This document shows positions 1 to 24,780 of a stretch of 64,000 bases of DNA, in pieces. Made by a program: the position numbers and the translations under genes. Positions within the stretch are counted from its first letter, which is position 1; every line of letters starts with the position of its first letter. The stretch comes from Cystobasidiomycetes sp. EMM_F5. Its lineage: Eukaryota. The notes under the pieces are model-generated. The model was not told the origin of the DNA. It searched no databases and was given only the letters and a program-made list of their open reading frames with translations. Where the stretch lies: NCBI GenBank assembly GCA_051047955.1, contig JBPGPT010000031.1, positions 1 through 64,000 on the forward strand. Reading direction: 5' to 3'.

Positions 1-43
1 GATGGTGCCGATGAGATGCCGTAGTGATGTTGACCCGCAGACT

Positions 44-120
44 ATTTAAGGGAGATGTCGACCCTTCCTTCTCTCTTCTCTTCTTCAACAGACCACATTC
101 CCTCCCACATTCTCCCCAAA
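44..120 (+). promoter_or_regulatory. Putative core promoter (TATTTAA followed by CT-rich tract) of the Cys-rich secreted protein gene
   Basis: TATTTAAG at ~44-50, then a pyrimidine-rich stretch at 62-117, about 200 nt upstream of ATG 241; typical fungal core promoter layout. Confidence 0.4.
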
Positions 121-240
121 TATCATCAGCTTGAAAGACTCTCAGTCCTTCCGGCACCCACACTCTTTTGAACAACCCACACTCATTTATACACATAAAT
201 CTTCGACCTTTACCTCCTCAACTCAACCACTGCAATCACC

Positions 241-1813
241 ATGTTGTCGTCACTCGCCATCGCAGCAGTAGCTACGCTCGGAGCCCAGCTCTTTGGTTCT
301 GCCGAGGCTCTTGGCGTCAATTGTCTATCTTCGGCCCTCGTCTGCCCAGCCCTCAGTCTGGTCAATGGCGTAGTCAGCTCAGCCGGATTGGCCAATACCG
401 GAAATGCTCTCTTTGGAGCCAATGGTCTTACCTGGTAAGTACTCAATTCGTAGGCATAAAATGGACTTTGCAGACTGAGCAATACCCTATTATTTAGTAA
501 CTACGGATCCAATCTCGCCCTCATCCAGTGTAACTACGATGGTAAGGTTTCCATGCATTATGCAAGTCCACTGGCCGATAAACTAATATTTCATTTTGTA
601 CAGCCAACGGTGCTTTGCAAGTCAACGCTTTGACGTCTACCGCGCTCCTTTGCGCACAGAACATCAAGACCTGCACATCGTGCCCGGCTGGTAATGCTCT
701 GCAGGCTGGCGACTGCGTGCCTTGTACTGGAGGCTTGTATGCTCTAGCAGGCAACACTGGAGGTACGTACTTGACCTGGCGCTAGTTGCAGTCGCATTCT
801 GTTAAACCGCGCGCTAATTGCCAATGTGCTGCCATAGTCTGCCGTGCCTGCCCGACTGGCTTTGTCGTCGATGCCCTCGGCTCAACATGCACACCCGTCG
901 CTACCCCACCCGCTTCCAACTGCGCAACCACCAGCCTCACCTGCCCGACCACCAGTCTGCTCGGCGTCGCTGTCACCACCAGCGTCGTCACCGCTGGCGT
1001 TACGACCTGCAACTACGGTGTACAAGCTTGCGTGTACGATGTGACTGGCCTCCTATCCACTCTCAATGGCTTCCTGAACGGCTGTCCCGCCGACTTGAAC
1101 AAAGCCTGCGCTACTTGCCCACTCGCCAATGGACTCGTCAACGGACTCTGCCAAGCATGCGTTGCAGGTACATTTGCCGTCGTCAATGGCATTCTGCCGT
1201 GCCAGGCCTGCCCAGCTGGATTCGTACCTACTGCCGATAGATCGTCGTGCGTCGCCATCGCCCCAACTGGCTGCCTGACTACCACATCTGCCTGCCCCGC
1301 CGTCGACGCTGCTGGAAATGCGTACAACGCTGGTCTCTCCTCCATCTTTGCGGCCAACAACCAGCTCAGCTGCGTGTATGGAGCAGCGGGTCTCAACACC
1401 TGCATCTATGGTCTCAACAGTAAGCTCGTGTAGCTTTGCCTTTGCAGACAGTGTGTCCTGATTAGCTCTTGGTTACCTCCAGGCGGCATTCTTACCGGAA
1501 CGAGCCTCAACAACAATCTCTGCCTCTCTACGGCTGTCACTGTGTGCGCTTCGTGCCCCGCTGGCTTTGCACTCAACAACCTTGCTTGCACTGCTTGCGC
1601 TGCTGGACAGGTCGCTGGTGTTGGTGTCAATGGTGAGCAGGCTTGTATCGCAACGCTCTATTGCTACCATCTGCTTATGCACTCTGTGCCCATCTAGTCT
1701 GCACAACCTGCCCCGCAACCCAGGTTCCCAACGCTGATCGATCAGCATGCGTTCTCCAAGCATCTGGCATCACCACTCGCCAGCGCCGCCAACGTCGTGC
1801 CGGTGCCAAGTGA
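241..1813 (+). CDS. Secreted cysteine-rich protein with three tandem 12-Cys modules (6 exons)
   Basis: Signal peptide MLSSLAIAAVATLGAQLFGSAEA. GT-AG introns at ~435-497, 542-603, 763-837, ~1420-1482 and ~1633-1697 join into one open frame ending ...RQRRQRRAGAK* (TGA 1811-1813). Repeated CxYG..CxY and CxxCP motifs. Confidence 0.85.
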
Positions 1814-4991: not shown

Positions 4992-7900
4992 ATGTCGCTG
5001 CCCACGTCCTCCACGTCCACGTCCTCCGCAGCCAGCTCAAAGCGGAGCCATACCTCGTCAAAGTCCAGAGTAAACAACAGTATCCTCAGGCAACCATTGA
5101 CGGCGACCTCGACAAACGCAGTGGCCCAGCAGAGCAGTGCGGGTATCAGAGATAATACCAATGGCAGCGCATATCCAGGTCTCGCCGCCAAGACTGGCCT
5201 CGTCAAGCCGTCGCTCAAGGTGGTCAATTCGAAATCCATTGCCGGCCAACTACGCCCAGCTTCTGCACATCTGAACAACAGAGACGGTGCAGCACTACCA
5301 TCCAGTCTGCACAACTCCCGCTCAGCGGCTGGATCTTTAGACGGCGGAAAGAGCGACAATCTGTCATCGACGAATGCCCGAGAGAATGCATCTGCAGGAA
5401 GCAGTACGGGCAACATCAAGGTGGTAGTCAGGTGTCGGTGAGTCGGTATTCCCATGCGCCGAGTTCTGCGTCGTCTAATCCCCTTGACACCGCTCTTGTT
5501 ATTCACAGAGCACCCAACGCGACTGAATTGGCACTTTCGCCATCTCTGCCTCTTCAAGTTTCTTCCACCAAAGGCACCGAAGTCTACATATCGCCATCTA
5601 CTCCCACTTCATCCGCCCTGCCTTCCTCCATTCCGTCAACTGCCGCAAATATAGGTCTGTTGGGCAAGGATGGCGATACGCAGACTACGCCCGACAATGG
5701 TGGCAGAGTGTACGCCTTTGATCATGTCTTTGGAGATCAGGCAGACCAGGCTATGCTGTATGGCGATGTGGTCGCACCGATATTGGACGAGGTGCTGCAG
5801 GGATACAATTGTACTATATTTGCGTATGGACAGACAGGTTGGTACCGCAAAGACCATTCGATGCTCGTGATTGACTGACTCTTGTACATTACGCAGGCAC
5901 TGGCAAGACCTATACTATGGAAGGCGATCTCACTCCATCTGCACTAGGCGCTTTCTCACCAGGAGCAGGAATCATTCCCAGAACGCTCCATCGTCTCTTT
6001 CATATTCTCGAAGGCCGAAGTAACTCCACCACCTCGTCCAGTCCCACCACTGCAGCTGACTTTAGCGTCCGAGTCTCGTTTCTCGAACTGTACAATGAGG
6101 AACTGCGAGATCTGAACGTGAGCGACGCGACGTGGAATGCAGCGAATGGTCTGCAACCAGTAGACGGTACCATACCTCTACCGCCGACTCTACGTATCTT
6201 TGAGGACAACTCGAACTCATCGTCCTCCTTACCTATCGCAAACAGTTCTGCTGCCGTCAGTAGTCAGGGTGTAAGCGCGGCAACAAGACGCGGAGGCGGC
6301 GTGGTAGTGCATGGTCTCGAAGAAACACACGTCTTGTCCGCTGCATCTGCAATACAAATTCTCGCTCGTGGTTCAGCTCGGCGTCAATCGGCCAGTACGA
6401 AATGCAATGATGCTTCGTCTCGCTCGCATGCGGTATTTACCATTACTGTTCACGTCAAGGAGATTTCAAATAAAGGAGAAGATTTACTCAAAGTGGGCAA
6501 ATTGCATTTGGTAGACTTGGCGGGTTCAGAGAATGTAGGAAGGAGCGGGGCTGTCTCCGGAAGAGCGAGAGAGGCGGGAATGATAAATCAGTCCTTGCTT
6601 ACCCTGGGAAGAGTCATCAATGCTCTTGTCGAGAAGAGTCCGCATGTTCCGTATCGGTGCGTTTAACCCAGATCCCACATTCCATATTCGCACTCTGATG
6701 AATCAGTGAATAGGGAATCCAAGCTGACACGCCTGTTACAAGACTCGCTGGGAGGCCGCACCAAAACTTGCATCATCGCAACTGTCTCTCCCTCTCGAAC
6801 GAATCTTGAAGAAACCCTGTCGACACTCGATTATGCCGCCCGAGCCAAATCTATTCGAAATCGACCAGAAGCCAATTCTCGCCTCACAAAAGCGGCATTA
6901 TTGTCTGCTTACGCCAGCGAGATCGAAAGGCTGAAGGCGGATGTCCTGGCTGCGCGTGAGAAGAGCGGAGTCTACCTCTCTGACGAAAGCTGGAAGGAGA
7001 TTTCAGATACGCACGAAAGTAGGCGAAAGGATCTGATGGAAGCGAAACGGCAGAGCGATATCTGTCAGAGTCAGCTACGGACGACTCAGGAGCAATTCGA
7101 TCAGGCTTTACGATTGTTGGGCACACGAGATGCTGAACTCCGGCAACTCAATGATGGACTCGAGATGGAGAAGGGCAACTTGAAGGATCTCGACACGGCC
7201 CTACAAGCCGTTCGGACACGTCTCGAAGACGAAGTGCTCCTGCGAAAAGTTAACGACCAGCATAGAAGAAAGTGGAAGCAGGTTGCGAATCAAGCGGTCT
7301 TTGATGCCGACGCTCTACGTCTGAAAATTGCAAGAAAGCAGGCTGTGGAACTCAGCAATGCTGATGCCGTCAATGACGCGCATACAGTTCTCGACGACTC
7401 GGCCAGACGAATGTTACGACTACTTGAGGATCATCTGAGACATCAAGAAGCGTTCATGACAGACAACAAGAGTAGACTAAAAAGCATGGCGGAGCGTCAA
7501 ATCGAAGTAAGATATACTCGTCTGGATTTCGACATGCTCAGATGCGACATGCTGACCCGCACTTATTCAGGCACTGACATCCAATCACGACTTTCTCAGC
7601 GAGCGGCTAGACAGTCTCCGCGCTGCTGCTGGCAATGTGAGCGCAATGCGAGCGGATCACGACGTTCAGACCAAGGCGTTTCTGCATTTAGTAGAGACTA
7701 CAACAGCAAGTTTGCTTGAGCACGCCACTGTGGCACTTGCCTCAGCTCGAGAAACTGCGAAACATGCCAACAAGGCAGTTCTAGAAGGCAGTCAAGCTCT
7801 TTTTGCTGAAGTGAGTTGAGAATCGCACAGGCCAATACTACTGAGACTGATTACACTCGCAGACCAATGCGACACTTGACGAGATGCATCAGTCTGTCCA

Positions 7901-9051
7901 AGATATATGTACCACGGCGGCTGCCTGTATCGCCAAGCAGACGACGTATGTAGACTTACAAAGAAGAGCAGAGCACGATGCTCTGCGAGCCGAGAACGAA
8001 CGCCTTAGAGCCCACAACGCGGCTCTGAGCCAACTAGTCGCTCAACAAGCTACGGCAGCAACACAATGGCAAAGCGAATTCCTGGCGTCCATCTCCGCAT
8101 CCGTCGGAGCGTTCAGTGCTTCGCAAGATCGCCTACTCAAAACTGGCGTGGAGGCCATTCAGAGTACCTTGCGACACGAGCAGGATGACAGAGTGGCAAA
8201 AACGAAAAGCAAACAAGCGAACCTAGCTCTGCTCGAACAGGAGGCGCTTGCGGCAAGCCAGACGCTCAATACGGCAGCAGATACAATTACGAGCTTGGTA
8301 GCTGAAAGGAAGGCAGTGCGTAGCATTATTTTTTGGGAGGTTATAGACATTGAAAGCTGACCTGTGAACTTATCAATGTGTGCAGTCCTGCTCTAAAAGC
8401 TTAGGCAACATGGTAGCCAACATTACAGCACAATCAGCTCTAGTGGACACAAGCTTAGAAGCGCAGTCGTCTTCGCTCGGAAACGGTGCCGAAGCTATGC
8501 ACCAACATACGAGTGCGTTCGAGCAAGCGAGAGAGGCTAGCTTGACAGCCGTGTCAGCAGAGATTGATGGCATAGTATTGGACGCCATCGAGACTTATGA
8601 AGATTTACAAGAAGACATGGCTGAAAGTCGCACCACTCTGGAGGAGCAGTTTGGTCAAGCAGAAGAGAGTACGGACGAGTACGCGCTGGAAGCACAGCGA
8701 TACTTCGCGCAGAGCAGCGAGACTATTGACGAGGTCCTCCAGACATTGGATAGCAAGCTGCTCAAAAACATGCTGAGAGACGTGCCCACCGGTGCGACTC
8801 CTGCGCGCCGGGCATATACTAGCCAGATCCCGGCAGAGGAACTTGACGATGCGGACGATCCGCTCGACGGCGATCGTTCTGCGGTCATACAACATCTGAA
8901 GCGTTTGGAAGCATCGTCACAAGCGGCTCACTCGCAAGACAATGAGCAGGACAGTCCACAGGTACCTCAACCGCGGCCGGCTATCGCGCATACAATAGCA
9001 GTTCGTAAAGCCACAAGGAGAAGTAGCATGATGCCATCAGGTGTTCGATAA
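4992..9051 (+). CDS. bimC: Kinesin-5 (BimC/Cut7/Kip1/Eg5 family) mitotic motor
   Basis: [27 protein letters not shown]-loop across an intron; [36 protein letters not shown]; coiled-coil stalk; C-terminal BimC box PTGATPARR. Confidence 0.95.
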
Positions 9052-13786: not shown

Positions 13787-15201
13787 ATGCACACCTTCTT
13801 TCTCGCCGCTCTCCTGTTGGTTTCGCCAGTCGTTCTCGCCAACCACGGAGGAAGCGGTCCAAAGCACGCCAGGTTTGCTCGAGTCAAGAGAGGCGGCCCC
13901 ACCCTTCACCTTATCGGCGACGAAACTGTAGCAGCTTGGTCGGGAGGCAATGTCGCAGGCGTGCCCAACAATGCTGCTCCTCCGGTCGTCAGCACGAGCT
14001 CGATGAATCTGATCGATTCGATTAATGCAGGTATTGGCGTAAAGACGAGTGCAGCAGCTAAAGTTGCTCGACGAGGAATGTTTACACCGAGCGCCAAGTC
14101 ATCATCAAGTACGTCGCAAGATGTAAGGACAACATCGAGCTCTTCCTCGTCGTCTTCCTCATCGTCTTCCTCGTCCTCGTCATCATCTTCGTCGAGCGTC
14201 AAACCTTCATCATCGTCTTCGTCATCGTCGAAGGAAGCTCCAGCATCCAGCTCGGCAGCACCGCCCTCGTCCTCCAAAGCTACATCCGCTTCTTCCTCGA
14301 CATCGTCGGCACCTCAGATGTTTGCGCCCAAGGCCAACGTAGCGGTCACTAGTGCGTCTTCACTCGCCTCAACTTTCAGCAGCAGCAGCAGCAGCTCGAG
14401 CTCTAGTGCGAGCTCTAGTTCCAGCACTGCGACCGCTACTCCAACTGGTCTGACAACCCCGCAAGGCTGGGGAGCAAGTGAGTAGCATGACCTCGATGTT
14501 TGTGATTTACTCAGCTAATTACTGCGACCTGATTGTAAATAGCCTTCGCTAGCAAGTACACTACAATGCAAGTGGTCAACCACGGCGCAAGGGGTGCTAC
14601 TACCCGCAACGTCTGGCGCAACATGTGGACCGACATCATCAAGCAGGTGAAGTCTGGTGACATTGTCGTCATTGAGCTAGGACACAACGACAATGCGCAG
14701 ATGCCGGGATCGCTTGCGGACAAAGCTACCGGATGCGGAAGTGTGATGGCAGGAGGTGGAGCAGGCTCTACTGTCACTACAGGATGCGATGGCAGCGTTG
14801 AGACGGTCTACACGTACTCTTCCTACCTTACGATGATGTGCGCTGCAGTCAGGGAAGCCGGAGCGACCTGTATCATCTCGAGTATCGTGCCCAAGAATGA
14901 GTGGAAGCGCGGCAATACAGTCACCTACAACAATGCCGACACGACGTTTGCGTCGCAGGTCGCGCAGGGCATGGGAATGCCGTTCGTCCCGCACTATACG
15001 ACTTCCATCAATCAGATGAATGGCGTCGGAGGAACGTCGTCTACCGAGTTTTATCTCTCTGGCGACACGTTCCAGACCAACACGTGGGGTGCAGAGCAGT
15101 TTGCGCAGTCGTTTGCTGCTGCAGCCTACTGCAACGGCGTCTCTGCCATTACTTCGAGCCTGACGCCTGCAGGACAGGCGCTCCAAGGCAAGCTGTGTTA
15201 G
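13787..15201 (+). CDS. Secreted SGNH/GDSL rhamnogalacturonan acetylesterase-like (CE12) protein, catalytically degenerate, with Ser-rich insert
   Basis: Signal peptide, KR site, TLHLIGDET, QGWG, VVNHGARG, GDIVVIELGHND, IISSIVPKNEW, FVPH, DTFQTNTWGAEQFA; one intron 14478-14542. Confidence 0.85.
14131..14430 (+). repeat. Poly-Ser low-complexity coding tracts (TCN/AGC repeats)
   Basis: Runs of tcgtcttcc and agcagcagc encoding poly-Ser within the SGNH gene. Confidence 0.8.
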
Positions 15202-15326
15202 TCTGTTGGCGAGTAGTCTTCTTTCCGGACGAGCCCTTGATGGGCGGTCGATTGAGCGAGTCTTGCAATTCGAGCTTCACCGTTGTCGTCGTTGGTATGT
15301 TGGCAATTCTGCGCCAAACCTGAGCC

Positions 15327-17870
15327 ATGTCGCTGTACGAGACTCTGCGACTGTGCGGGCCATGTCACTATTTGCTACGAGGGTGTCGATGACTGAGGCC
15401 TATCGTCGTCGTCGTCGCCGTCTGCAGATATGCCAGCAAGGACGCCTACACGCTCGTCCCAGAGTCTGGCGGACCACTCAGGAGCAACAGCAATGGTGAT
15501 ATCAATGGCCAGCCAGCGTCCCTCGTCTTCAACCGGCGTTCAAACGATATCGTCGTCAGCTGTGGGTGTGGTCGCAAGATTGGCGGTGAAGGATGTACTG
15601 ATATATGTTGTTGCAAATGGTGCTCACTGACAATGATCCAGCATCGCTGACCCCTCCTACCTCGTACGACTCGGCTACCCTCGTCTACGGCCTCTTTGGT
15701 GTGATATCGCTGACGCACTGTGAGCTGATTTGAAGGACGCTCGGGCAGTCACATCCATCTCCGCTCTGCTGACGGGTCGCGATGGGTGTACACTTAGGCG
15801 ACTACCTCATCTTTATCACGTCGAGAAAGCGAGTCACTCGCGTTCTCGATACCGACATCTATCTCGCTCGAGACTTCAAGGTCTTCCCCATAGACCCGGC
15901 CCTGTCCGCAGCCGCATCGTCAAAGATCTCTGGTCTACAAACTCCAAACGAAAGCTTCCTCCTCTCTCTAATCAAAGGTCATCTCTACTCTGGCCCATTC
16001 TACTATACGTACGGCCAGTATGACATCACGAGCAGGCTGCAGGTCCAGGATCCCAGCGACTCGCGACCCTTGTGGCAGAGGGTGTGTAAACTTGACTATC
16101 ATTACTATCAGTAAGAGTTCTCGTACTGAATCTTGTATACAGGCAGACGACCGCTTCTTCTGGAATAGACACTTGCAGACCCGGCTGATTGACCTCGCAT
16201 CCAACTCTGGCGGGTTTAATGTATCTGCCTTCGTGCTGCCCACCCTCTTTGGCTTTTGCGAATTCAAGACTGCAAGCATCCGTTCCCGTGATTTTGTATT
16301 TGGTGTCATTTCTCGCCGATCCCGACATCGGGCAGGAACGCGATACTTTTCGCGAGGTATAGACGCAAAGGGCAACGTGTCAAACTTTAATGAAACGGAA
16401 CAGCTCCTCCTGCTTGATCCATTGAGCGAGAAAGCTAGCGCGAGCGGGCCTGTTAGAGGCTTGATTCGCGCTTCATACGTTCAGATCAGAGGAAGCGTGC
16501 CCATCTACTGGGCCGAGGTCAACAATTTACGCTACAAGCCCGATCTGGTGGTCATGGACCTGACGACAACTGTAGGTCGCCATTGCAAGCGTAGAAGTCG
16601 AGCATCTCGGCTAAGTGACGACGGTATACGATAGGCCGACTCACTCACGCGTCATTTCGACTCTGTCACATCCGTGTATGGCGATATCTACGTAGTGAAT
16701 CTGGTCAATCAGAAAGGCTACGAGAAGCCAGTCAAGGAGGCATTTGAACGAGCTCTCCAAGAAGTCGGGAATCCCAAAGTTCACTACACGTACTTTGACT
16801 TTCACCACGAGACGAAAGGTTTGAGGTTTGATCGCGTCGCCAAGCTCATTGACAACTTCGAGGACGATCTCAACCAGCAAGGCTTCTTTTACGCTTCCGC
16901 CACGCCCGAAGGTTCTCGAGTACAGCGAACCCAGACCAGCGCCGTCAGATCAAACTGTATGGATTCGCTTGATAGGACAAATGTCGTGCAGAGCACCTTT
17001 GCAAAACGCGCGTTGACTGTACAGCTGCGCCAGGCTGGTGTCCTGGGAGCAAACGAAACCCTAGACAACCACGGCGATTTCATGTTTTTATTCCGCAACA
17101 GTATGTACCGTCTTGCATCGAAGCGGTTTCCGTGCGCTGAGCTGATGCAATTCTTGTACGCAGTCTGGGCTGACAATGCCGATACGGTCTCAAAAGCATA
17201 CTCTGGCACCGGTGCTCTGAAGACCGACTACACTCGGACTGGGAAGCGTACAAATGCTGGTCTCATTCAAGACGGTGTGAACTCCATCATGCGATACGTC
17301 AAGAACAACTTCCTGGATGGGCCTCGTCAGGACGCATACGATCTCGTTACTGGCACGTGGATTCCGCGAAAGGGAGACAGCGCGGCCTTTATAGATCATA
17401 GACCTGTGCTCACTCGTATCGTCCCATACGTCCTCTTTGCTTCGCTGGCCACGATGACAGCAATCTTCAATTTCCCGAGATTGTCCGCTCGTAAGCGCTT
17501 TCGGCTCTCGATCTGAGGTGCTGCATAGCTGAATGTGCTTTATACTTGATCGCTTGCAGATTATCTGAATGCTGGCGTATCAGTCTTTGTATTATCGTTC
17601 TTGACCTTCTCAGGGTCCGCCTACTATGCGCTCATGCATGGCATAGATTACGTCGCTTGGCCTAGACTGCGACCGCTTACAGAGACCATCAACTATTCTG
17701 GCAAAGGGCACTTTTCCGGGCGTAGAGGGCGAGGCTTTGCAGCGAGCGGCGGAGGTCAAATTGGAGGTAAAAATAAGCAGCTTGCTGTGCAGACGCATAG
17801 TGACAAGGTAGAGAAGGACATGGAGACGGGTCATACAGCAGCTCTGCCGGGCAAGAAGCGAGTAGACTGA
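15327..17870 (+). CDS. SAC1: Phosphoinositide phosphatase Sac1
   Basis: Spliced N-terminus MSLYETLRLYASKDAYTL; ADDRFFWN; SRRSRHRAGTRYFSRGID..NFNETEQ; QIRGSVP; RSNCMDSLDRTNVVQ (CX5R); WADNAD..SKAYSGTGALKTDYTRTGKR; C-terminal TM hairpin. Confidence 0.95.
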
Positions 17871-17968: not shown

Positions 17969-18931
17969 CTACTTCGAAGGCCCACGACCGTCTAAGATCT
18001 CTACTCTTCGTACCAACTCGTGCAGATATAGGTCCTGTGAGTCGGGCGCCAGCTCCAAGACTGCGCGATGGAGATTGTACAGATATTCTGAATTTCGTCC
18101 GGATGCTGGAGGAGATAAGACGCTTTAATTGCTAGTCCGGGGCTCAAGCCGGTATACATATATACGCACGGCCTGTGCTCCTCTGGATAAGGGCAGCGAG
18201 CTCATCTAGAGGCTGGGCTCCGATGAAGGAGGGATTCGCAGATAATCCGACGTACACCTGTCATATCTAATCAGTCTACAATCATTCTTGCGGGTGAGCT
18301 CGACATTTCACCTCGGCCTGACATGCACAGAGTGAGCTCGTTCGTACTCGACTGCACACCGACAAGTAAGCTCACATTGGGTACGACAATCTGTTCGATT
18401 CCGTCCACTTTACGATACACATCCACTCTTTCGCATGAGTATCCGTCCTTTTCTCGATAATCCAGGTACGCCTTGACTTCCACTGCGTATTCTGGATCTA
18501 TACGGTATACGCAACCCCATACGCAGTCTCCGTCTGGAAGATCATCTGCGTACGGTAAGCTGTGCCATTCTTTTGCGTTGACTAGTGTCACGACCCGACC
18601 GGGCGCCTCTGGGGTGCCTCTATGATCATTTGAGCTTTCTATGACGATGTCCATCAGAAATGTCGAGTGTACGCCTGTCGAGCAAAGCAAGGCGTACGCG
18701 CAAATCTCCGCGAGAAGCCTTTGATATAGCCTGGAATGCGCTCGATGGCATGCGGAGGAGGTTTCCATATGAGAGCTAGAGGAAAACAAGATGAGTACGT
18801 GTTAATCGTTAGAGCGTCAGTGCAAGTCTGTTGCCGTACACCCATATCTTTGCCAGGAGCAGTATTGGCGTCAGCCGCACTGCTTCCTTGGACCATTTCG
18901 GGCACCATGCTCACCCAAATATGTACTCCAT
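17969..18931 (-). CDS. GCG1: ChaC-family glutathione-specific gamma-glutamylcyclotransferase
   Basis: Spliced [70 protein letters not shown]. Confidence 0.93.
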
Positions 18932-19197: not shown

Positions 19198-20876
19198 TCA
19201 AGTATACCATCGGGCAGCCTCCGTCGGTCGCTTTTCCTTTCGATGTGGAATGACCGATTCAGTAACGTCGTACGCCGCCTTGGCGTCTTCCCACATCTGC
19301 ATATCGAGTTCAATGACGACCTGTCTGGGTTTGAACGACTCGTCTTGCTTTTCCTCCTCCGAAGGTGGCTCGCAGTAGACTGGATGCATCCACTGTCAGC
19401 TTCTCGTGTCAACACATGATCACGTCAGTTGTTGCGTACAGATAACTGGATCGGAATCACTACGGATTTCGATAGCTGCACGCTTTTCTTTGATGAGGAA
19501 ACTCAAAAAGAAGGTATTTTCCACCGTCTGGTTGAAGGAATGAGGATTAATGAGGAACTTGAACAAGTTTATCCCTTCGTCGCCTTGCTCCATTAGGACA
19601 TCGCGGACATGCCGTACCCAGCCGGTCGTGCCTTCATCTGTACCGTCAATGTCGTCTGCTGTAATCTGTATATATGACTTTGTCAGACAGTGGGCTTGTA
19701 GCAGTCGTTTGACCGCTCACCTGCTCCGGCCGTACGACCTCCACTGCAGCCTCCTTTGCTTGACGAGCCTTCTTCTGGACCTTCTTCTTTTGTGGTATCG
19801 CAAGCGGACCGAGCCTATTCGCGCAGTGATGCATCAGCAAGGACACAAGCAGAGTCTCAGGTAGCACTTTTGCTTACATGAAGTCGATGGGCGGGACGCG
19901 AAGGGTGAACCTAGTCGCCAGCTTCCCGATGATATCCCATCCTTTCACAGCCGTGTGAAGGGGAATTTCGACGTCGTCATCATCTTCATCATCGTCTTCC
20001 CTTCTTTGGCTTCCTCGGCCGCGTTGCGACCCGGCATTACGGGGTCTACGTACATCCAGTTGTATACCGCCAGTAATGACCTTCTTTAGCTTAGCGACAA
20101 AGTCGTCCGTGTCGAAATGGTCTACTCCGATTCGCATCTTGCGAGCTTGCTGTATCGCCATGTCTCCCGTCAGCATTAAGAGATTAGAGTCGAGCACTGC
20201 TTCGGCTGGCGTCTTGACGGTAGTAAACAGCTCATTTGCTCTCTGAATGCTGCTTTTGATGGCCGAAGCCGTCATACTTTCGGGATCATTCAATCGCCCA
20301 GCTGTATGACACAAGTATTGGCTGGAATGTTCTTCATAGCAAGCCATTACACTCACCCATCAGATGGCTCGTCAGGTTGCGATATTCCTTCCGGACCTTG
20401 CGCTTCTCGTCAATAGCTGAAGAAACAGAGATGCAGGCTTCGGTAAGTATATGCATTAGACCATGTATTCAGGGATCTTCCGGCCTACGCTGTCGAGGAT
20501 CGTAGACGCTATCTTCTGGTCTATCTTCTATGCCATCTTCAGCTTCTTCCTCCATGTCTGCGTCCTCCTGACCATTAGTAGCAGCCGTAGCGGCAGCAGC
20601 TGTGCTACGTCTTGTGCCATTTGTTCCGTTATTTGCATCGCTCGTGGGTGCCTCAAGTTCCGGCGAGGAGGGCCTTGGACGTGACGCCGGCGCGGAAGCT
20701 GTCGACTTTCGCATGACTTTCTTTCCATTCGTAGCTTTTCCATTAGTCGCTGCTCTCGCAGACGTGGTTGCTTTCGGGCTGCTCTGGTCGACGTCCATCG
20801 CGTCTCCTCCACGGTCTGACCCGTCCTCGCTCTCTTCGCGGACTTCAGCCTGCTTGCTAGCCCTGCGTGAGCTCAT
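19198..20876 (-). CDS. NSE4: Smc5/6 complex kleisin Nse4
   Basis: VKTPAEAVLDS, FDTDDF, GINLFKFLINPHSFNQTVENTFFLSFLIKE, RQVVIELDMQMWE..SVIPHR. Start codon uncertain; in-frame upstream ATG at ~21047. Confidence 0.88.
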
Positions 20877-21357: not shown

Positions 21358-22699
21358 CTAGGACGACGCGCCGTGAAATGAAGATGGCCTCACGGGAACG
21401 GCAGGAACGTCTGGGAGGTGTTGCATATTGCCCGCCCTGTTCCAGTCGAGCTCCAGGCTACTTGCTCGCGTCGATACTGCAGCAGTCCTGATCCCGCTCG
21501 TCTCCCATCCCTCAGGTATACGATCCATCACATCCAGCGAGCTGTCTGGTCGAGCAGAGGTGTCATTCTCAGCAGCGTCAACCTCATACCCAGAAGCAGC
21601 ATTGTCGGAAACTTTGTCTGGTATAATGTCCTCAATGGCCAACTGTCGAGCACTCGACGCGACACTATCCTGAGGCGTAGCGTATGCAGCAGAAACAATA
21701 ATACGGCTGCCAGAAGCTTGTGGGGGTGCTTGTACAGTAACGATATTGCGCATGTCGACAACTGGTAGCGCTGTACCCAGCGTACCACTACTGCTCTGAG
21801 TACGCAAGCTCCCTGTCTCCTCTTGCACGCTAGCGAGATGCTGGCCGTCATCAAGCCGTTTACGAATAGGCGAGCTGAACGCGACTGGACCGCCTGTTAT
21901 GTACGCGTACCCCGCTTCCCTAGGAGAGTAGGTAGAAGCAGCGAACCGTCTCGTCGAGGCATCCAGGGTATGGCCAGAAATGCAATTCTCTGCCGCATAT
22001 GCCCGTGTACATCTCGTAGGACTGCGTCTCCTCCGCCGCACGCAGATGAAAGCGACAGAGCTCGCAAATATGAGAAGCACGACAATGACGACGAGCACAC
22101 CGATGGCGGTTGGTAGGGAAATGCGCGGTCCTCCGTCTATAGAGCTATCGGTCGTGTTGAGCGTTTCTGTGGTCGATTGAGCCGCACTCGACAGCGCGCT
22201 ACTGTCTAGTGAAGCTCGGCTACCGGAAGTATCTGATGTGATCGTTTCCGTTAGGATGGACGAAGTTGGCGTTTGCGTGTCTGGAGGCGTAGACGCACTC
22301 CACGACGCGGAAGTGAACAACTACAATGTACATCCGTCAGAACTGCTATTCAATTTGACAAACGCGTACCAAACTCGCTTGACTGACCTGAGAAGCAAGA
22401 CGGTCCGAAGCCGAAGTAGGCTGAGACCATACGGAGGTTGACGATGGGGTGTCGGCGGACGAAGGATTGGGAGGTCTCGATGACAAAGTAGGCAGAGGTG
22501 ACGTGTAAGATAAAGTCTGCTGTATGGCTGTATCGGAGGTTGATAGACTTGTGGTTCGAGAAGCTGTCAGGCGACTGGAAGTTGTGCTAGTCGATACAAA
22601 AGGGTCGGATTGAGGAGGGACCTCGCGCGAGGAGGTGATTGAGGAACGGGAGGTGGGCGAAGAAGACGAGGAGCTGCGACTTGGAGTATTGTGCGACAT
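21358..22699 (-). CDS. Ser/Thr-rich single-pass membrane protein (mucin/Mid2-like topology), unknown function
   Basis: Two ORFs joined by a probable intron (~22324-22369): Ser/Thr-rich N-region, hydrophobic IGVLVVIVVLLIFASSVAFICV followed by RRRRR, then cytoplasmic tail; start uncertain. Confidence 0.6.
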
Positions 22700-23071: not shown

Positions 23072-24780
23072 TCACGGCTCGCCCAATCTTCGTTTCCGGA
23101 CAGCATGCTGGTAGCCGTGCGAATGCGCTTGATTCACTGAATCTGCATTCGGGTTGGCGCTTCCGACATGAGCGGCTCCTGCGACTGCTCCATGAGAAGG
23201 CCTGAGCGCTGCACTCGCACTACTGGCATTTGCGGTGTGCTGTCTGAGCGTGTGAGAGGTAAGATGAGCGTGAGCAGCAGCGGCAGCATTCAGCTTTGGA
23301 TCTGAATCATCGTGCGTGACTGTGAACATTACTCGAACGTCAGCGTGTACAATCGTTGATGAACTAGATGTCCATCGTACCTCTTCGTAGGGGATAACTT
23401 CCCGCCACCCATGCATTCCTACAATCCTGCACCTTCGGCTCTTCAGACCACCATGGATGACTTAGCGCTCTTCGTGCCGTAATGCGTGTGTTTGGGTCAT
23501 ATATCAGCAATGCACTTAGCAGGTCGAAACCTGCTGAGTTTGCCCCTCCTGCACCCGAGCCAGCAGGAGCTCGCTCAGAGTACCAATTGAACAGTCTGTT
23601 TGATGGATGGTTTGGCAGAGACGACAGCTGCGGAGCATCTGGAAGTGCATCGATGGAAGGATAGCGTTGTTTAGTGGGCGAACCCATGATTTCAAATATC
23701 TTTGAAAGTTGATCTCGCTGGAAGGGTATCCCACTTGCTTTTCGAGGCTGTACGCCTCCTGTCGCTAGAAGGACAGAAGCTGTACTTATCGTTGCGAGTG
23801 GCTCGGGCTTGGCTTCTTCGCCTTTGAACATGGGTCGATTGGCAATCAACTCGCCGTAGATGCAGCCTACGGACCAGACATCCACTGCAGTCGTGTAGTG
23901 GCGTGCGCCGAGCAAGAGGTCTGGAGGACGATACCATATCGTCACTACGACCTTGTCGCTTGTCCATAGAGATTGAAGTGGCGAGTGGTAGATGCGAGCC
24001 AAGCCCAAATCACCAATCTTGACTGTCCCATCAGAAGTGACGAGAATGTTTGCGGGCTTGAGATCGCGGTGGATGACCCAGTTATCGTGCAGGTAGACGA
24101 GGCCGTTGAGGAGTTGCCAGAGGAGAGACTTGAGTGTCGGCAGGGAGATGGACGTCCTGGTTGTGCTGTGTTGGTGAATGATCTGTAGAAAGTCGTGCTC
24201 GCTGTACTCGAAGACCATGTAGATTGCCCTATCCTCGAGGAGCACCTCTGACAGTGCTGTGAGGTTGACGTGCGATAGCTCGCGGTTGAGCTGTGCAGAC
24301 GTGAAATGAGCAAAGTCGCAGAGAAGAGTGTACTCGGCTGACCATAATCTCTCGAATGGCACTCTGGGATATGCCGGTATACGTGGGTCCAGAGGCTGAC
24401 TCTGAGCCGTCTGCCTTGAACTTTCTGACGATGCGGGGCTTCAATTATAAATTACAGCCTTGGAGGAGTTTCTTGCTCACTTGATGGCGCACAGCTGGAT
24501 ACGAGATTGTTTGGGAAACATCAGCCTTTCTCAGCGTCTTTAGCGTCAGTAATCAGCCATTTGCCTGTCCCACTGGCTTTGACGGATCCGATATTCTGAC
24601 TGAGGCTTTGTAAACGCGGCTGGCACATAATTCAGCCAGCTTTCGTTAGCCTATGTCATTGCCCACCCACCCATACGTCCCCGATGCCAGGAAACCCATT
24701 ATGTTGTACTTTTCCAGGATGCTCTGCCGCTTTGCGTCCTTTGCTGCCCTGTACGACTGCATACCGCTCGTCGGGGCCAT
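23072..24780 (-). CDS. SSN3: Mediator kinase Ssn3/Srb10/CDK8
   Basis: KYNIMGFLASGTYGRVYKA, YTGISQSAIREI, YSEHDFLQIIH, HRDLKPANIL, KIGDLGLAR, DKVVVTIWYR..LLLGARHYT, FKGEEAK, PFQRDQL. Confidence 0.95.

What the first reader, a model, noticed from the sequence alone, without database searches (positions are those of the whole stretch)
13916..15075. Secreted SGNH/CE12 pseudo-enzyme: catalytic Ser->Glu and His->Gln
The fold motifs of rhamnogalacturonan acetylesterase are clearly present (GWG, VVN..G, GDxVVIExGHND, SSxxP.N.W). However, block I reads GDET instead of GDST (GAA at 13922-13924) and block V reads DTFQ instead of DxxH (CAG at 15073-15075). The frame is intact, with a signal peptide and a KR processing site. 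Inference: a maintained non-catalytic protein, such as a pectin or acetylated-glycan-binding lectin or decoy, or an enzyme with new chemistry using Glu/Asp.
Basis: partly seen in the sequence, partly recalled or inferred. Interest (0 to 1): 0.75.

Follow-up and report, generated by a model that had tools for sequence, protein, structure and literature searches.

The report
Conserved catalytically dead esterase homologue
A fungal-type gene encodes a secreted look-alike of a pectin-deacetylating enzyme in which two key catalytic residues are replaced by glutamate and glutamine, in this gene and in its relatives, so it has probably been kept for a job other than ester hydrolysis.

Summary
GAA 13922-13924 and CAG 15073-15075 lie in one two-exon gene (13787-14477, 14543-15201; 449 aa). 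Its body matches Aspergillus rhamnogalacturonan acetylesterase (PDB 1DEO, E 5.8e-18). Glu46 takes the place of the nucleophile Ser and Gln408 the place of His195.

This is neither an error nor decay. All 11 non-window relatives that cover block V have Gln. All 3 confidently aligned N-termini read GDET. The relatives form one clade (SH-aLRT 100) on a long stem beside canonical fungal enzymes. The oxyanion Asn is also lost in 6 of 7 family members.

An AlphaFold model of the full-length relative P0132 rebuilds the whole fold. The GDET strand has pLDDT 96 and the model aligns to 1DEO with Z 29.3 over 228 of 233 residues, across a disordered insert. In the window that insert is 43% Ser.

Best reading: a maintained, secreted, non-esterase CE12-fold protein, probably a glycan binder. 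Binding, new chemistry, a decoy role and dN/dS are all untested. I found no paper on a CE12 pseudoenzyme. I rate it a new variant of a known kind, of moderate interest.

The parts
13787..14477 (+). Exon 1 (230 codons plus 1 base): signal peptide, propeptide, strand beta1 with GDET, Ser-rich insert, GWG
   Evidence: Open frame from ATG 13787. N-terminal 58-90 residues are 72% and 47% identical to P0285 and P0132.
13787..13840 (+). Predicted signal peptide, residues 1-18 (MHTFFLAALLLVSPVVLA)
   Evidence: Read by eye; no predictor available. Equivalent hydrophobic N-termini occur in P0132 and P0285. Helix 5-16 in the P0132 model.
13880..13891 (+). RVKR dibasic (Kex2-type) site ending the conserved propeptide, residues 32-35
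   Evidence: CGA GTC AAG AGA. RVKRG is conserved in 3 of 3 N-termini: window, P0132, P0285. Cleavage is inferred, not shown.
13916..13927 (+). Block I, G44-D45-E46-T47: Glu (GAA 13922-13924) at the nucleophile Ser position
   Evidence: Aligned under (G/S)DST of 13 of 13 canonical rows with an N-terminus. In the P0132 model this strand has pLDDT 96 and model residue 39 aligns to 1DEO residue 1.
14003..14038 (+). Conserved short motif MNLIDSINAGIG (residues 73-84) at the start of the insert
   Evidence: DSINAGLG or KINAGLG is present in P0132, P0285 and P0241. Helix 74-84 of the P0132 model, pLDDT 60-70.
14084..14452 (+). Low-complexity Ser/Ala/Thr-rich insert between beta1 and GWG, probably an O-glycosylated disordered loop
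   Evidence: Residues 61-225 are 43% Ser, 14% Ala, 10% Thr. TCN-type tandem arrays at 14140-14229 and (CAG)6 at 14377-14395. The equivalent region of P0132 (95-385) has pLDDT below 50. Glycosylation is inferred.
14465..14473 (+). GWG motif (residues 227-229), where the SGNH body resumes
   Evidence: Aligned with GWG of canonical enzymes.
14478..14542 (+). Intron, 65 nt, GTGAGT...TAG
   Evidence: Removal restores a junction matching the intron-less relatives P0132 and P0241. P0285's frame stops just after GWG, like the window's. No RNA evidence.
14543..15201 (+). Exon 2: SGNH/CE12 body, residues 231-449, stop TAG 15199-15201
   Evidence: PDB 1DEO E 5.8e-18. Pfam Lipase_GDSL_2 32.1 bits against a cut-off of 32.9.
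14593..14595 (+). Block II Gly248, equivalent to Gly42 of 1DEO; the next residue is Ala instead of Arg
   Evidence: alignment. Gly in 7 of 7 family and 42 of 42 canonical rows. The next residue is Ala in 6 of 7 family rows against Arg in 28 of 42 canonical rows.
14680..14691 (+). Block III GHND (Asn279 equivalent to Asn74), kept in the window only
   Evidence: Family: Asn 1, Tyr 5, Ser 1 of 7. Canonical: Asn 42 of 42.
15061..15078 (+). Block V G-D405-T-F-Q408-T: Gln (CAG 15073-15075) at the His195 position
   Evidence: alignment. Gln in all 11 non-window relatives covering it, His in 41 of 42 canonical rows.

Best explanation
The gene encodes a secreted CE12-fold (SGNH) protein descended from fungal rhamnogalacturonan acetylesterases. 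It no longer works as a Ser-His-Asp esterase and is maintained by selection as a non-catalytic protein.

Shown here:
- The nucleophile Ser is Glu46 and the base His is Gln408.
- Both replacements are fixed across a clade of relatives.
- That clade has also lost the oxyanion Asn (mostly replaced by Tyr) and the block II Arg.
- The clade has gained four conserved Cys.
- The fold is kept intact across a long disordered insert.

Inferred mechanism: after signal-peptide removal and Kex2-type cleavage at RVKR, the protein is exported. The Ser-rich loop becomes heavily O-glycosylated. The former active-site cleft, now lined by Glu, Gln and (in most members) Tyr, binds a polysaccharide ligand without hydrolysing it. 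The ligand could be plant pectin or a fungal wall glycan. In this reading the protein acts as a lectin- or CBM-like binder or adhesin.
For: - Homology and residue mapping: (1DEO E 5.8e-18; window D under D192, Q under H195; G17 and N48 of exon 2 under G42 and N74).
- Block I: GDET sits under GDST of 13 of 13 canonical rows, and is present in 3 of 3 confidently aligned family N-termini.
- Block V: Gln in 11 of 11 non-window relatives covering it.
- Rarity: Ser in 437 of 441 and His in 431 of 452 filled rows among 504 domain hits.
- Clade: 8 of 8 family rows lie on one side of a branch with SH-aLRT 100. The stem is 1.26 changes per column. End branches are 0.13-0.87, against a median of 0.61 for the whole tree. 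The clade groups (support 88) with canonical Rhizoctonia, Tuber and Nowakowskiella rows.
- Family-specific conserved residues: Cys295, Cys312, Cys330, Cys340, Ala249, Phe417.
- Constraint pattern: the body is 47-60% identical and the N-terminal 58-90 residues 47-72% identical to relatives, while the insert is unalignable.
- Fold: the P0132 model has beta1 at pLDDT 96, the body above 90 and the insert below 50. It aligns to 1DEO with Z 29.3, rmsd 2.4 A, 228 of 233 residues, model range 39..622.
This fits a binding-module role for dead CE12 domains.
- Literature precedents, seen as abstracts or tables only: the non-enzymatic XLP1 paralogue of XEG1 (PMC12003678, abstract); beetle pectinase pseudoenzymes (PMC6549527, abstract); the RNA-binding OSK family within SGNH (PMC9487903, Table 1 passage).
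Against: - No binding, expression or activity data exist.
- The window's own protein still has 3 of the 5 canonical catalytic-site residues (Gly248, Asn279, Asp405), and a carboxylate could in principle take part in catalysis.
- dN/dS could not be computed because no orthologue DNA was obtained.
- All relatives are unnamed, and most are fragments cut at introns.
- The placing of beta1 depended on the alignment. With alignment A4, where the N-termini were misaligned, the GDET strand stayed at pLDDT about 40 and another strand (261-268) reached 74.
- One divergent relative (P0241) may read TNQT instead of GDET. This rests on MAFFT only, with no BLASTP support.
- The block II Arg, thought to help bind pectin carboxylates, is lost. 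That weakens the case for pectin specifically as the ligand.
Confidence: 0.55

Rival explanations
1. It is an active enzyme with new chemistry. The invariant Glu46 (nucleophile or general base) and Gln408, with Tyr in most relatives, would form a new catalytic centre in the old cleft. The substrate would be an ester, glycoside or other bond in a wall polysaccharide.
For: Glu and Gln are fixed, not merely tolerated: 3 of 3 and 11 of 11. The long stem followed by conservation fits neofunctionalisation. The window keeps Gly248, Asn279 and Asp405. A review abstract notes that some 'pseudoenzymes' have migrated catalytic residues (PMC10211241, abstract only).
Against: The other pocket residues drift within the clade: block III is N, Y or S and block V is D, N or G. 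That is unusual for a catalytic centre. I found no described SGNH enzyme with a Glu nucleophile (searches; the SGNH review PMC9487903 was read in passages only).
Confidence: 0.15
2. It is a decoy. The dead homologue would mimic the organism's own active CE12 esterase and soak up a host inhibitor or immune receptor, as XLP1 does for XEG1 in Phytophthora.
For: It is secreted, has the same fold as an active wall-degrading enzyme, is catalytically disabled, and is conserved. The precedent is in the abstract of PMC12003678.
Against: No active CE12 paralogue lies in the 64-kb window (tblastn), and no genome is held to look further. The organism and its lifestyle are unknown. I know of no plant inhibitor of RGAE (recalled, not searched). 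The clade has diverged strongly from canonical enzymes (34% identity to the best one), with remodelled surface Cys and a large insert, which makes it a poor mimic. The neighbouring genes are housekeeping genes, not an effector cluster.
Confidence: 0.12
3. It is a wall or mucin-like structural glycoprotein. In this reading the Ser-rich loop is the functional part and the CE12 fold is only a stable scaffold with no ligand.
For: The insert is 43% Ser. Inserts occur in every relative that covers the region, but with different lengths and sequences.
Against: This reading does not explain why Glu46 and Gln408 in particular are invariant while the insert itself is unconstrained. There is no C-terminal hydrophobic GPI-type signal; the protein ends ...QGKLC.
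Confidence: 0.1
4. It is a decaying pseudogene, or the two codons are sequencing or assembly errors in an ordinary esterase gene.
For: Pfam scores fall just below the gathering cut-off (32.1 against 32.9). No RNA run was found, which is no evidence either way.
Against: The 449-codon frame is open. The same replacements occur in relatives at 39-61% identity. Ser to GAA needs at least 2 base changes. A second data set keeps CAG. Cys, Gly and core residues are conserved.
Confidence: 0.03

Closest known systems
Aspergillus aculeatus rhamnogalacturonan acetylesterase Rha1 (CE12; PDB 1DEO, 1K7C, 1PP4, 3C1U)
   Same: Homologous over the whole body (E 5.8e-18). Same fold in the model of relative P0132 (Z 29.3-29.9, rmsd 2.0-2.4 A, 224-228 residues). 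Shares GWG, the block II Gly, GHND, the block V Asp and the C-terminal Cys pair. Both are secreted.
   Different: The nucleophile Ser is Glu and His195 is Gln. The block II Arg is Ala. There are four extra conserved Cys. An insert of about 165 residues (about 340 in P0132) lies between beta1 and GWG. A conserved propeptide ends in RVKR.
Canonical fungal CE12 enzymes (e.g. Rhizoctonia solani P0149, Tuber P0265, Nowakowskiella P0172)
   Same: These are the nearest canonical sequences (34% identity over 179 residues). They fall in the same part of the tree, with support 88.
   Different: They keep GDST, GHND and DxxH and have no insert. The E/Q clade is separated from them by a stem of 1.26 changes per column.
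Degenerate second domains of bacterial tandem CE12 proteins (P0194, P0166, P0144, P0164, P0154, P0222)
   Same: They are CE12-type domains with a non-Ser residue or a lost His: GDES/GHHD and GDEA/GHYE, which include Ser to Glu and Asn to Tyr or His.
   Different: They are bacterial and fused behind an N-terminal CE12 domain that keeps the block I Ser and the block V His but itself lacks the block III Asn (SHHE in P0194, NENE in P0166, SHGE in P0164 and P0154, SENE in P0222; only P0144 keeps GHND). Block V is not recognisable, with no conserved Gln. Only about 25-30% identical. Probably an independent loss.
Phytophthora XLP1, non-enzymatic GH12 paralogue of XEG1
   Same: A secreted, catalytically disabled copy of a plant-wall-degrading enzyme that is kept by selection (PMC12003678, abstract).
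   Different: Different fold and family. The decoy partner and the host inhibitor are known there and unknown here.
Non-catalytic uses of esterase/SGNH folds: the CE2 esterase cleft that also binds cellulose, and the OSK RNA-binding domain
   Same: They show that an esterase-type cleft or SGNH fold can serve for binding. OSK is listed as RNA-binding in Table 1 of PMC9487903. The CE2 paper was seen only as a title in that review's reference list.
   Different: They are unrelated families. CE2 keeps its catalytic Ser-His.

Membership tests
CE12 / SGNH rhamnogalacturonan acetylesterase | Significant sequence homology to a characterised member | tested here: met
   Exon 2 against 1DEO: E 5.8e-18, 68.4 bits, residues 3-207 to 28-224.
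CE12 / SGNH rhamnogalacturonan acetylesterase | SGNH alpha/beta/alpha fold including central strand beta1 | tested here: met
   Tested on the full-length relative P0132, which is 47% identical, not on the window's spliced protein. Z 29.3, rmsd 2.4 A, 228 of 233 residues of 1DEO; beta1 pLDDT 96. In a first run with a misaligned MSA, beta1 was not placed.
CE12 / SGNH rhamnogalacturonan acetylesterase | Block I nucleophile Ser (GDS) | tested here: not met
   Glu46 (GAA 13922-13924). GDET sits under GDST of 13 of 13 canonical rows.
CE12 / SGNH rhamnogalacturonan acetylesterase | Block II oxyanion Gly | tested here: met
   Gly248 lies under Gly42. Gly in 7 of 7 family rows.
CE12 / SGNH rhamnogalacturonan acetylesterase | Block III oxyanion Asn (GxND) | tested here: met
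   The window has GHND (Asn279 under Asn74). In the clade, however, Asn occurs in only 1 of 7 members; 5 have Tyr and 1 has Ser.
CE12 / SGNH rhamnogalacturonan acetylesterase | Block V Asp-x-x-His | tested here: not met
   D405-T-F-Q408: the Asp is kept and the His is replaced by Gln. Gln in 11 of 11 non-window relatives.
CE12 / SGNH rhamnogalacturonan acetylesterase | Pfam Lipase_GDSL_2 gathering score | tested here: not met
   32.1 bits against a cut-off of 32.9 for exon 2 alone. P0132 scores 27.0. The result is borderline, and the window's block I exon was not part of the scored piece.
CE12 / SGNH rhamnogalacturonan acetylesterase | Acetylesterase activity | not testable with these tools
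   Needs an enzyme assay.
Pseudoenzyme decoy of the XLP1 type | An active paralogue in the same genome, and a host inhibitor or receptor bound by both | not testable with these tools
   No genome is held. No paralogue lies in the window. The host is unknown.
Carbohydrate-binding (lectin/CBM-like) pseudoenzyme | Demonstrated glycan binding through the former active-site cleft | not testable with these tools
   Inferred only from the conserved Glu, Gln and Tyr at pocket positions.

The most novel reading that the evidence does not exclude
The E/Q clade would be a new functional class built on the CE12 fold. The invariant Glu46/Gln408 pair (with Tyr at the old oxyanion position in most members) would form a new active centre or a highly specific sugar-recognition site. 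The Kex2-type sites in the insert would cut the protein into two chains held together by the central beta1 strand. That would be a secreted 'split' SGNH protein with chemistry or specificity not known for this superfamily.
Probability: 0.12. Interest if true: 0.8.

Novelty: new variant of a known kind. Interest (0 to 1): 0.5.

Why it matters
Dead copies of wall-degrading enzymes are emerging as binders, decoys and regulators in plant-microbe and herbivore systems. None appears to have been described for carbohydrate esterase family 12.

This case offers a clean example. It is a whole clade in which the nucleophile and the base are replaced by the same two residues. The fold is preserved across a mucin-like loop inserted between its first strand and the rest. 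Pfam scores just miss the cut-off, so routine annotation would call these proteins hypothetical.

If the cleft binds a glycan, the family is a ready-made probe for that glycan. If Glu and Gln are catalytic, it extends the chemistry of the SGNH superfamily.

Tried and rejected
- Whole genome: none is held, so I could not search for an active CE12 paralogue. Within the window there is none (tblastn).
- Full-length relatives: the 'longer' word-index search gave only bacterial tandem CE12 proteins at about 32% identity. The full-length relative P0132 came from the exhaustive HMMER search.
- Expression: no RNA holder was listed.
- Read laying: only a 257-bp contig (X1) and a 185-bp contig (X2) lie on the gene body. 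The GAA codon is not covered. All the pieces listed on 14133-14195 (14 of the 16 shown; 10 more were not shown) are low-complexity matches with 6-11 differences.
- Taxon: the atlas search with the SAC1 neighbour gave only 'Eukaryota'. The atlas search with exon 2 gave a GDSL cluster in which Basidiomycota is commonest.
- Earlier findings of this scan: nothing.
- First AlphaFold run: with alignment A4 the canonical N-termini were misaligned to P0132 residue about 383, and beta1 stayed at low confidence. I repeated the run with A6.
- Literature: searches returned no paper on a CE12 or RGAE pseudoenzyme. Only the listings and one review's passages were read.
- Rejected explanations: sequencing error and pseudogene decay (see the rival explanations).
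Full report
**Gene model.** The finding lies in a two-exon gene on the + strand. Exon 1 runs from ATG 13787 to 14477. A 65-nt intron (GTGAGT...TAG, 14478-14542) follows. Exon 2 runs from 14543 to the TAG stop at 15199-15201. The spliced product has 449 residues.

The splice is supported by the junction it creates. GWGA-T-FASKYTT matches the uninterrupted GWGAAFADRYT of relative P0132 and GWGAAFGNRYTT of P0241. The exon-1-like relative P0285 stops just after GWG, as the window's frame does. No RNA data could be found.

**The observation.** GGC GAC GAA ACT (13916-13927) reads G44-D45-E46-T47. GGC GAC ACG TTC CAG ACC (15061-15078) reads G-D405-T-F-Q408-T. Exon 2 matches Aspergillus aculeatus rhamnogalacturonan acetylesterase (PDB 1DEO) with E 5.8e-18.

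In that alignment:
- Gly248 lies under Gly42.
- Asn279 lies under Asn74.
- Asp405 lies under Asp192, the residue changed in entry 3C1U ('D192N mutant').
- Gln408 lies under His195.

For block I, a MAFFT alignment puts GDET of the window, P0132 and P0285 under (G/S)DST of 13 of 13 canonical rows that have an N-terminus; 2 further canonical rows lack it. That this Ser is 'Ser9' of the enzyme is recalled from the literature. It agrees with the structural alignment, where model residue 39 of P0132 aligns to chain residue 1, which puts Glu47 of P0132 at position 9 if the strand has no gap.

- The block I column is Ser in 437 of 441 filled rows. The exceptions are E twice, G once and R once, all in bacterial second domains.
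- The block V column is His in 431 of 452 filled rows.
- Fourteen rows have Gln. Three are copies of the window's own protein. The other 11 are its relatives: P0132, P0281 and P0124 (one 90% cluster), P0141, P0196, P0211, P0220, P0238, P0244, P0272 and P0277.

The family N-termini were not captured by that HMM run, so block I of the clade rests.

**Not an error, not decay.** A Ser codon needs at least 2 base changes to become GAA. A 257-bp contig from run X1 (depth about 2) covers 14969-15225 with one difference, at 15082, and keeps CAG. A 185-bp contig from X2 covers 14757-14941 with 3 differences. The two listed (14799, 14847) fall on third codon positions and are synonymous by my reading. 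These runs may not be independent of the window's source, and the GAA codon is not covered.

The stronger evidence is comparative.
- Gln is present in 11 of 11 non-window relatives that reach block V.
- GDET is present in 3 of 3 confidently aligned N-termini.
- A fourth, more divergent relative (P0241) is aligned by MAFFT as TNQT. BLASTP gives no significant match there, so this is tentative.

Identities to the window:

| Region | Relative | Identity | Length |
|---|---|---|---|
| Exon 2 body | P0281 | 60% | 211 |
| Exon 2 body | P0132 | 47% | 218 |
| Exon 2 body | P0241 | 40% | 91 |
| Exon 2 body | P0149 (best canonical, Rhizoctonia) | 34% | 179 |
| Exon 1 N-terminus | P0285 | 72% | 58 |
| Exon 1 N-terminus | P0132 | 47% | 90 |

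The Ser-rich middle does not align at all. So the fold-forming parts are constrained and the insert is not.

**Phylogeny.** I built an IQ-TREE quick tree (LG+C20, 44 rows, 268 columns). It held 8 family rows and 36 single-domain canonical hits of 200-340 aa. I left out short or duplicate family rows (P0124, P0189, P0241), family fragments recognised only later (P0211, P0238, P0244, P0272, P0277), and multi-domain proteins.

The tree puts all 8 family rows on one side of a branch with SH-aLRT 100. The stem is 1.26 changes per column. End branches are 0.13-0.87, against a median of 0.61 for the whole tree. The clade sits (support 88) with canonical rows from Rhizoctonia, Tuber and Nowakowskiella. 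The tree is unrooted and the method was 'quick'. The pattern of a long stem followed by ordinary rates fits a single change of function followed by maintenance.

**What else changed.** Within the clade the block III Asn is kept only in the window. The seven members covering it have Asn once, Tyr five times and Ser once, while canonical rows have Asn in 42 of 42. The block V Asp varies among D, N and G. The residue after the block II Gly is Ala in 6 of 7 family rows, against Arg in 28 of 42 canonical rows.

Four Cys are conserved in the family and rare in canonical sequences: 295, 312, 330 and 340. Other family-specific positions include Phe417, where canonical rows have Asn in 27 of 42. The C-terminal Cys pair (427, 449) is shared with many canonical fungal enzymes. 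So the catalytic apparatus has been dismantled as a whole while the scaffold has been reinforced.

**Structure.** The window's spliced protein cannot be handed to the predictor, so I modelled the full-length, intron-less relative P0132 (622 aa).

With alignment A4 the canonical N-termini were misaligned to P0132 residue about 383. The body (395-622) was confident, but the GDET strand was not placed; its pLDDT was about 40. Foldseek still gave 1DEO as best match (E 7.1e-18, target-normalised TM-score 0.82).

With alignment A6, which aligns block I correctly, strand 41-45 has pLDDT 96 and residues 95-385 stay below 50. The VIA alignment gives:
- 3C1U: Z 29.9, rmsd 2.0 A, 224 residues.
- 1DEO: Z 29.3, rmsd 2.4 A, 228 of 233 residues, over model range 39..622.
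- YxiM: Z 24.4.
- All others: 15.2 or lower.

The whole RGAE fold is therefore rebuilt across the insert, with Glu at the nucleophile position. This result depends on the alignment and concerns a relative. Model coordinates cannot be read here, so I could not check whether another Ser or His reaches the pocket.

**Anatomy outside the fold.**
- Residues 1-18 look like a signal peptide. This was read by eye.
- Residues 19-35 form a conserved propeptide ending in RVKR (13880-13891). RVKRG is present in 3 of 3 N-termini.
- After beta1 comes a conserved short motif (MNLIDSINAGIG, 14003-14038). It is also found in P0132, P0285 and P0241.
- A low-complexity stretch follows. Residues 61-225 are 43% Ser, 14% Ala and 10% Thr, encoded partly by TCN-type tandem arrays.
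- There are no N-glycosylation sequons and no C-terminal GPI-type tail.
- The window's insert holds one further dibasic site (RR 95-96). By my reading of the sequences, the inserts of P0132, P0241 and P0285 also hold KR or RR sites. Whether any is cleaved is unknown.

**Context.** The neighbours are housekeeping genes: a kinesin motor (5875-9051), a SacI-homology phosphatase (15972-17516), ChaC (18271-18801, minus strand), Nse4 (19874-20359, minus strand) and a protein kinase (23364-24440, minus strand). There is no CAZyme or effector cluster.

The nearest canonical hits are fungal, and the nearest atlas cluster has Basidiomycota as its commonest phylum. None of the 9 family clusters looked up (the 9 of the 10 proteins asked about in that call that belong to the family) carries a name or an NCBI or UniRef record, although annotated fungal proteomes are in the same database. 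So the family seems confined to poorly annotated lineages.

**Interpretation.** Shown: this is a conserved clade of secreted CE12-fold proteins that lack the Ser and His of the triad and, as a clade, the oxyanion Asn.

Inferred: they are not Ser-esterases and are kept for another role. I favour glycan binding through the remodelled cleft (confidence 0.55), for these reasons:
- Glu, Gln and Tyr are typical sugar-contacting residues.
- The fold's cleft is built for a polysaccharide.
These include Ser to Glu with Asn to Tyr or His (P0166 GDEA/GHYE, P0194 GDES/GHHD). That is the arrangement expected of a binding module. In five of the six proteins that N-terminal domain itself lacks the block III Asn, so whether it is active is unknown.

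Loss of the block II Arg argues against an acidic pectin ligand in particular.

The rivals are new Glu-based chemistry (0.15), an XLP1-like decoy (0.12), a mere scaffold for a mucin-like loop (0.10), and decay or error (0.03).

**Novelty.** Searches for SGNH, RGAE or CE12 together with pseudoenzyme terms found no description of such a family (only listings were read, plus passages of the review PMC9487903). Pseudoenzymes among wall-degrading enzyme families are known (abstracts of PMC12003678 and PMC6549527). I therefore rate this a new variant of a known kind, of moderate interest.

Noticed in passing
Proteins P0194 (298-510), P0166 (819-1064), P0144 (363-582), P0164 (286-522), P0154 (185-419), P0222 (356-525): Bacterial tandem CE12 proteins carry a degenerate second domain (GDES/GHHD, GDEA/GHYE, GDGT/GYDE, GDSA/GHAD, GDRA/GHLD; no block V His) behind a first domain that keeps the block I Ser and the block V His. 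Two of them show the same Ser to Glu change as the window's gene, apparently independently.
   Followed up: partly
P0132 residues about 140-330: The insert of this relative holds two copies of a Cys-containing unit of about 100 residues (GTG-W-SEG-TK-W-TTA...GKCG-AKNTRTVC) that is absent from the window. With a misaligned MSA, AlphaFold gave strand 261-268 a pLDDT of 74. With the corrected MSA the region was disordered. No Pfam match.
   Followed up: partly
window 14069-14074 (RR 95-96), and the inserts of P0132, P0241, P0285: Each insert holds one or more dibasic KR or RR sites besides the conserved RVKR. If they are cut, the protein would become two chains held together by the central beta1 strand.
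   Followed up: no
Family fragments P0141, P0196, P0211, P0238, P0244, P0272, P0277: Many relatives' called proteins diverge right after '...FAGE' or '...FVGE' near the C-terminus. This suggests an extra intron at that spot in those organisms. The window has none there (SFAAAAYCNG).
   Followed up: no
window 14140-14229 and 14377-14419: TCN-type and CAG tandem arrays encode the Ser-rich loop. Unrelated contigs of runs X1 and X2 match only this low-complexity stretch. The array length is likely to vary between strains.
   Followed up: partly
window 21358-22320 (-): A 320-residue open frame rich in Ser and Thr, with one hydrophobic stretch followed by RRRRR. It looks like a single-pass membrane glycoprotein. 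Only sub-threshold Pfam hits (DAG1, DAP10).
   Followed up: no
window 5875-9051 (+): A kinesin motor gene is split over several open frames (5875-6666, 6667-7719, 7851-8360, 8368-9051). This is consistent with short introns. Pfam Kinesin E 1e-55 for the first piece.
   Followed up: partly
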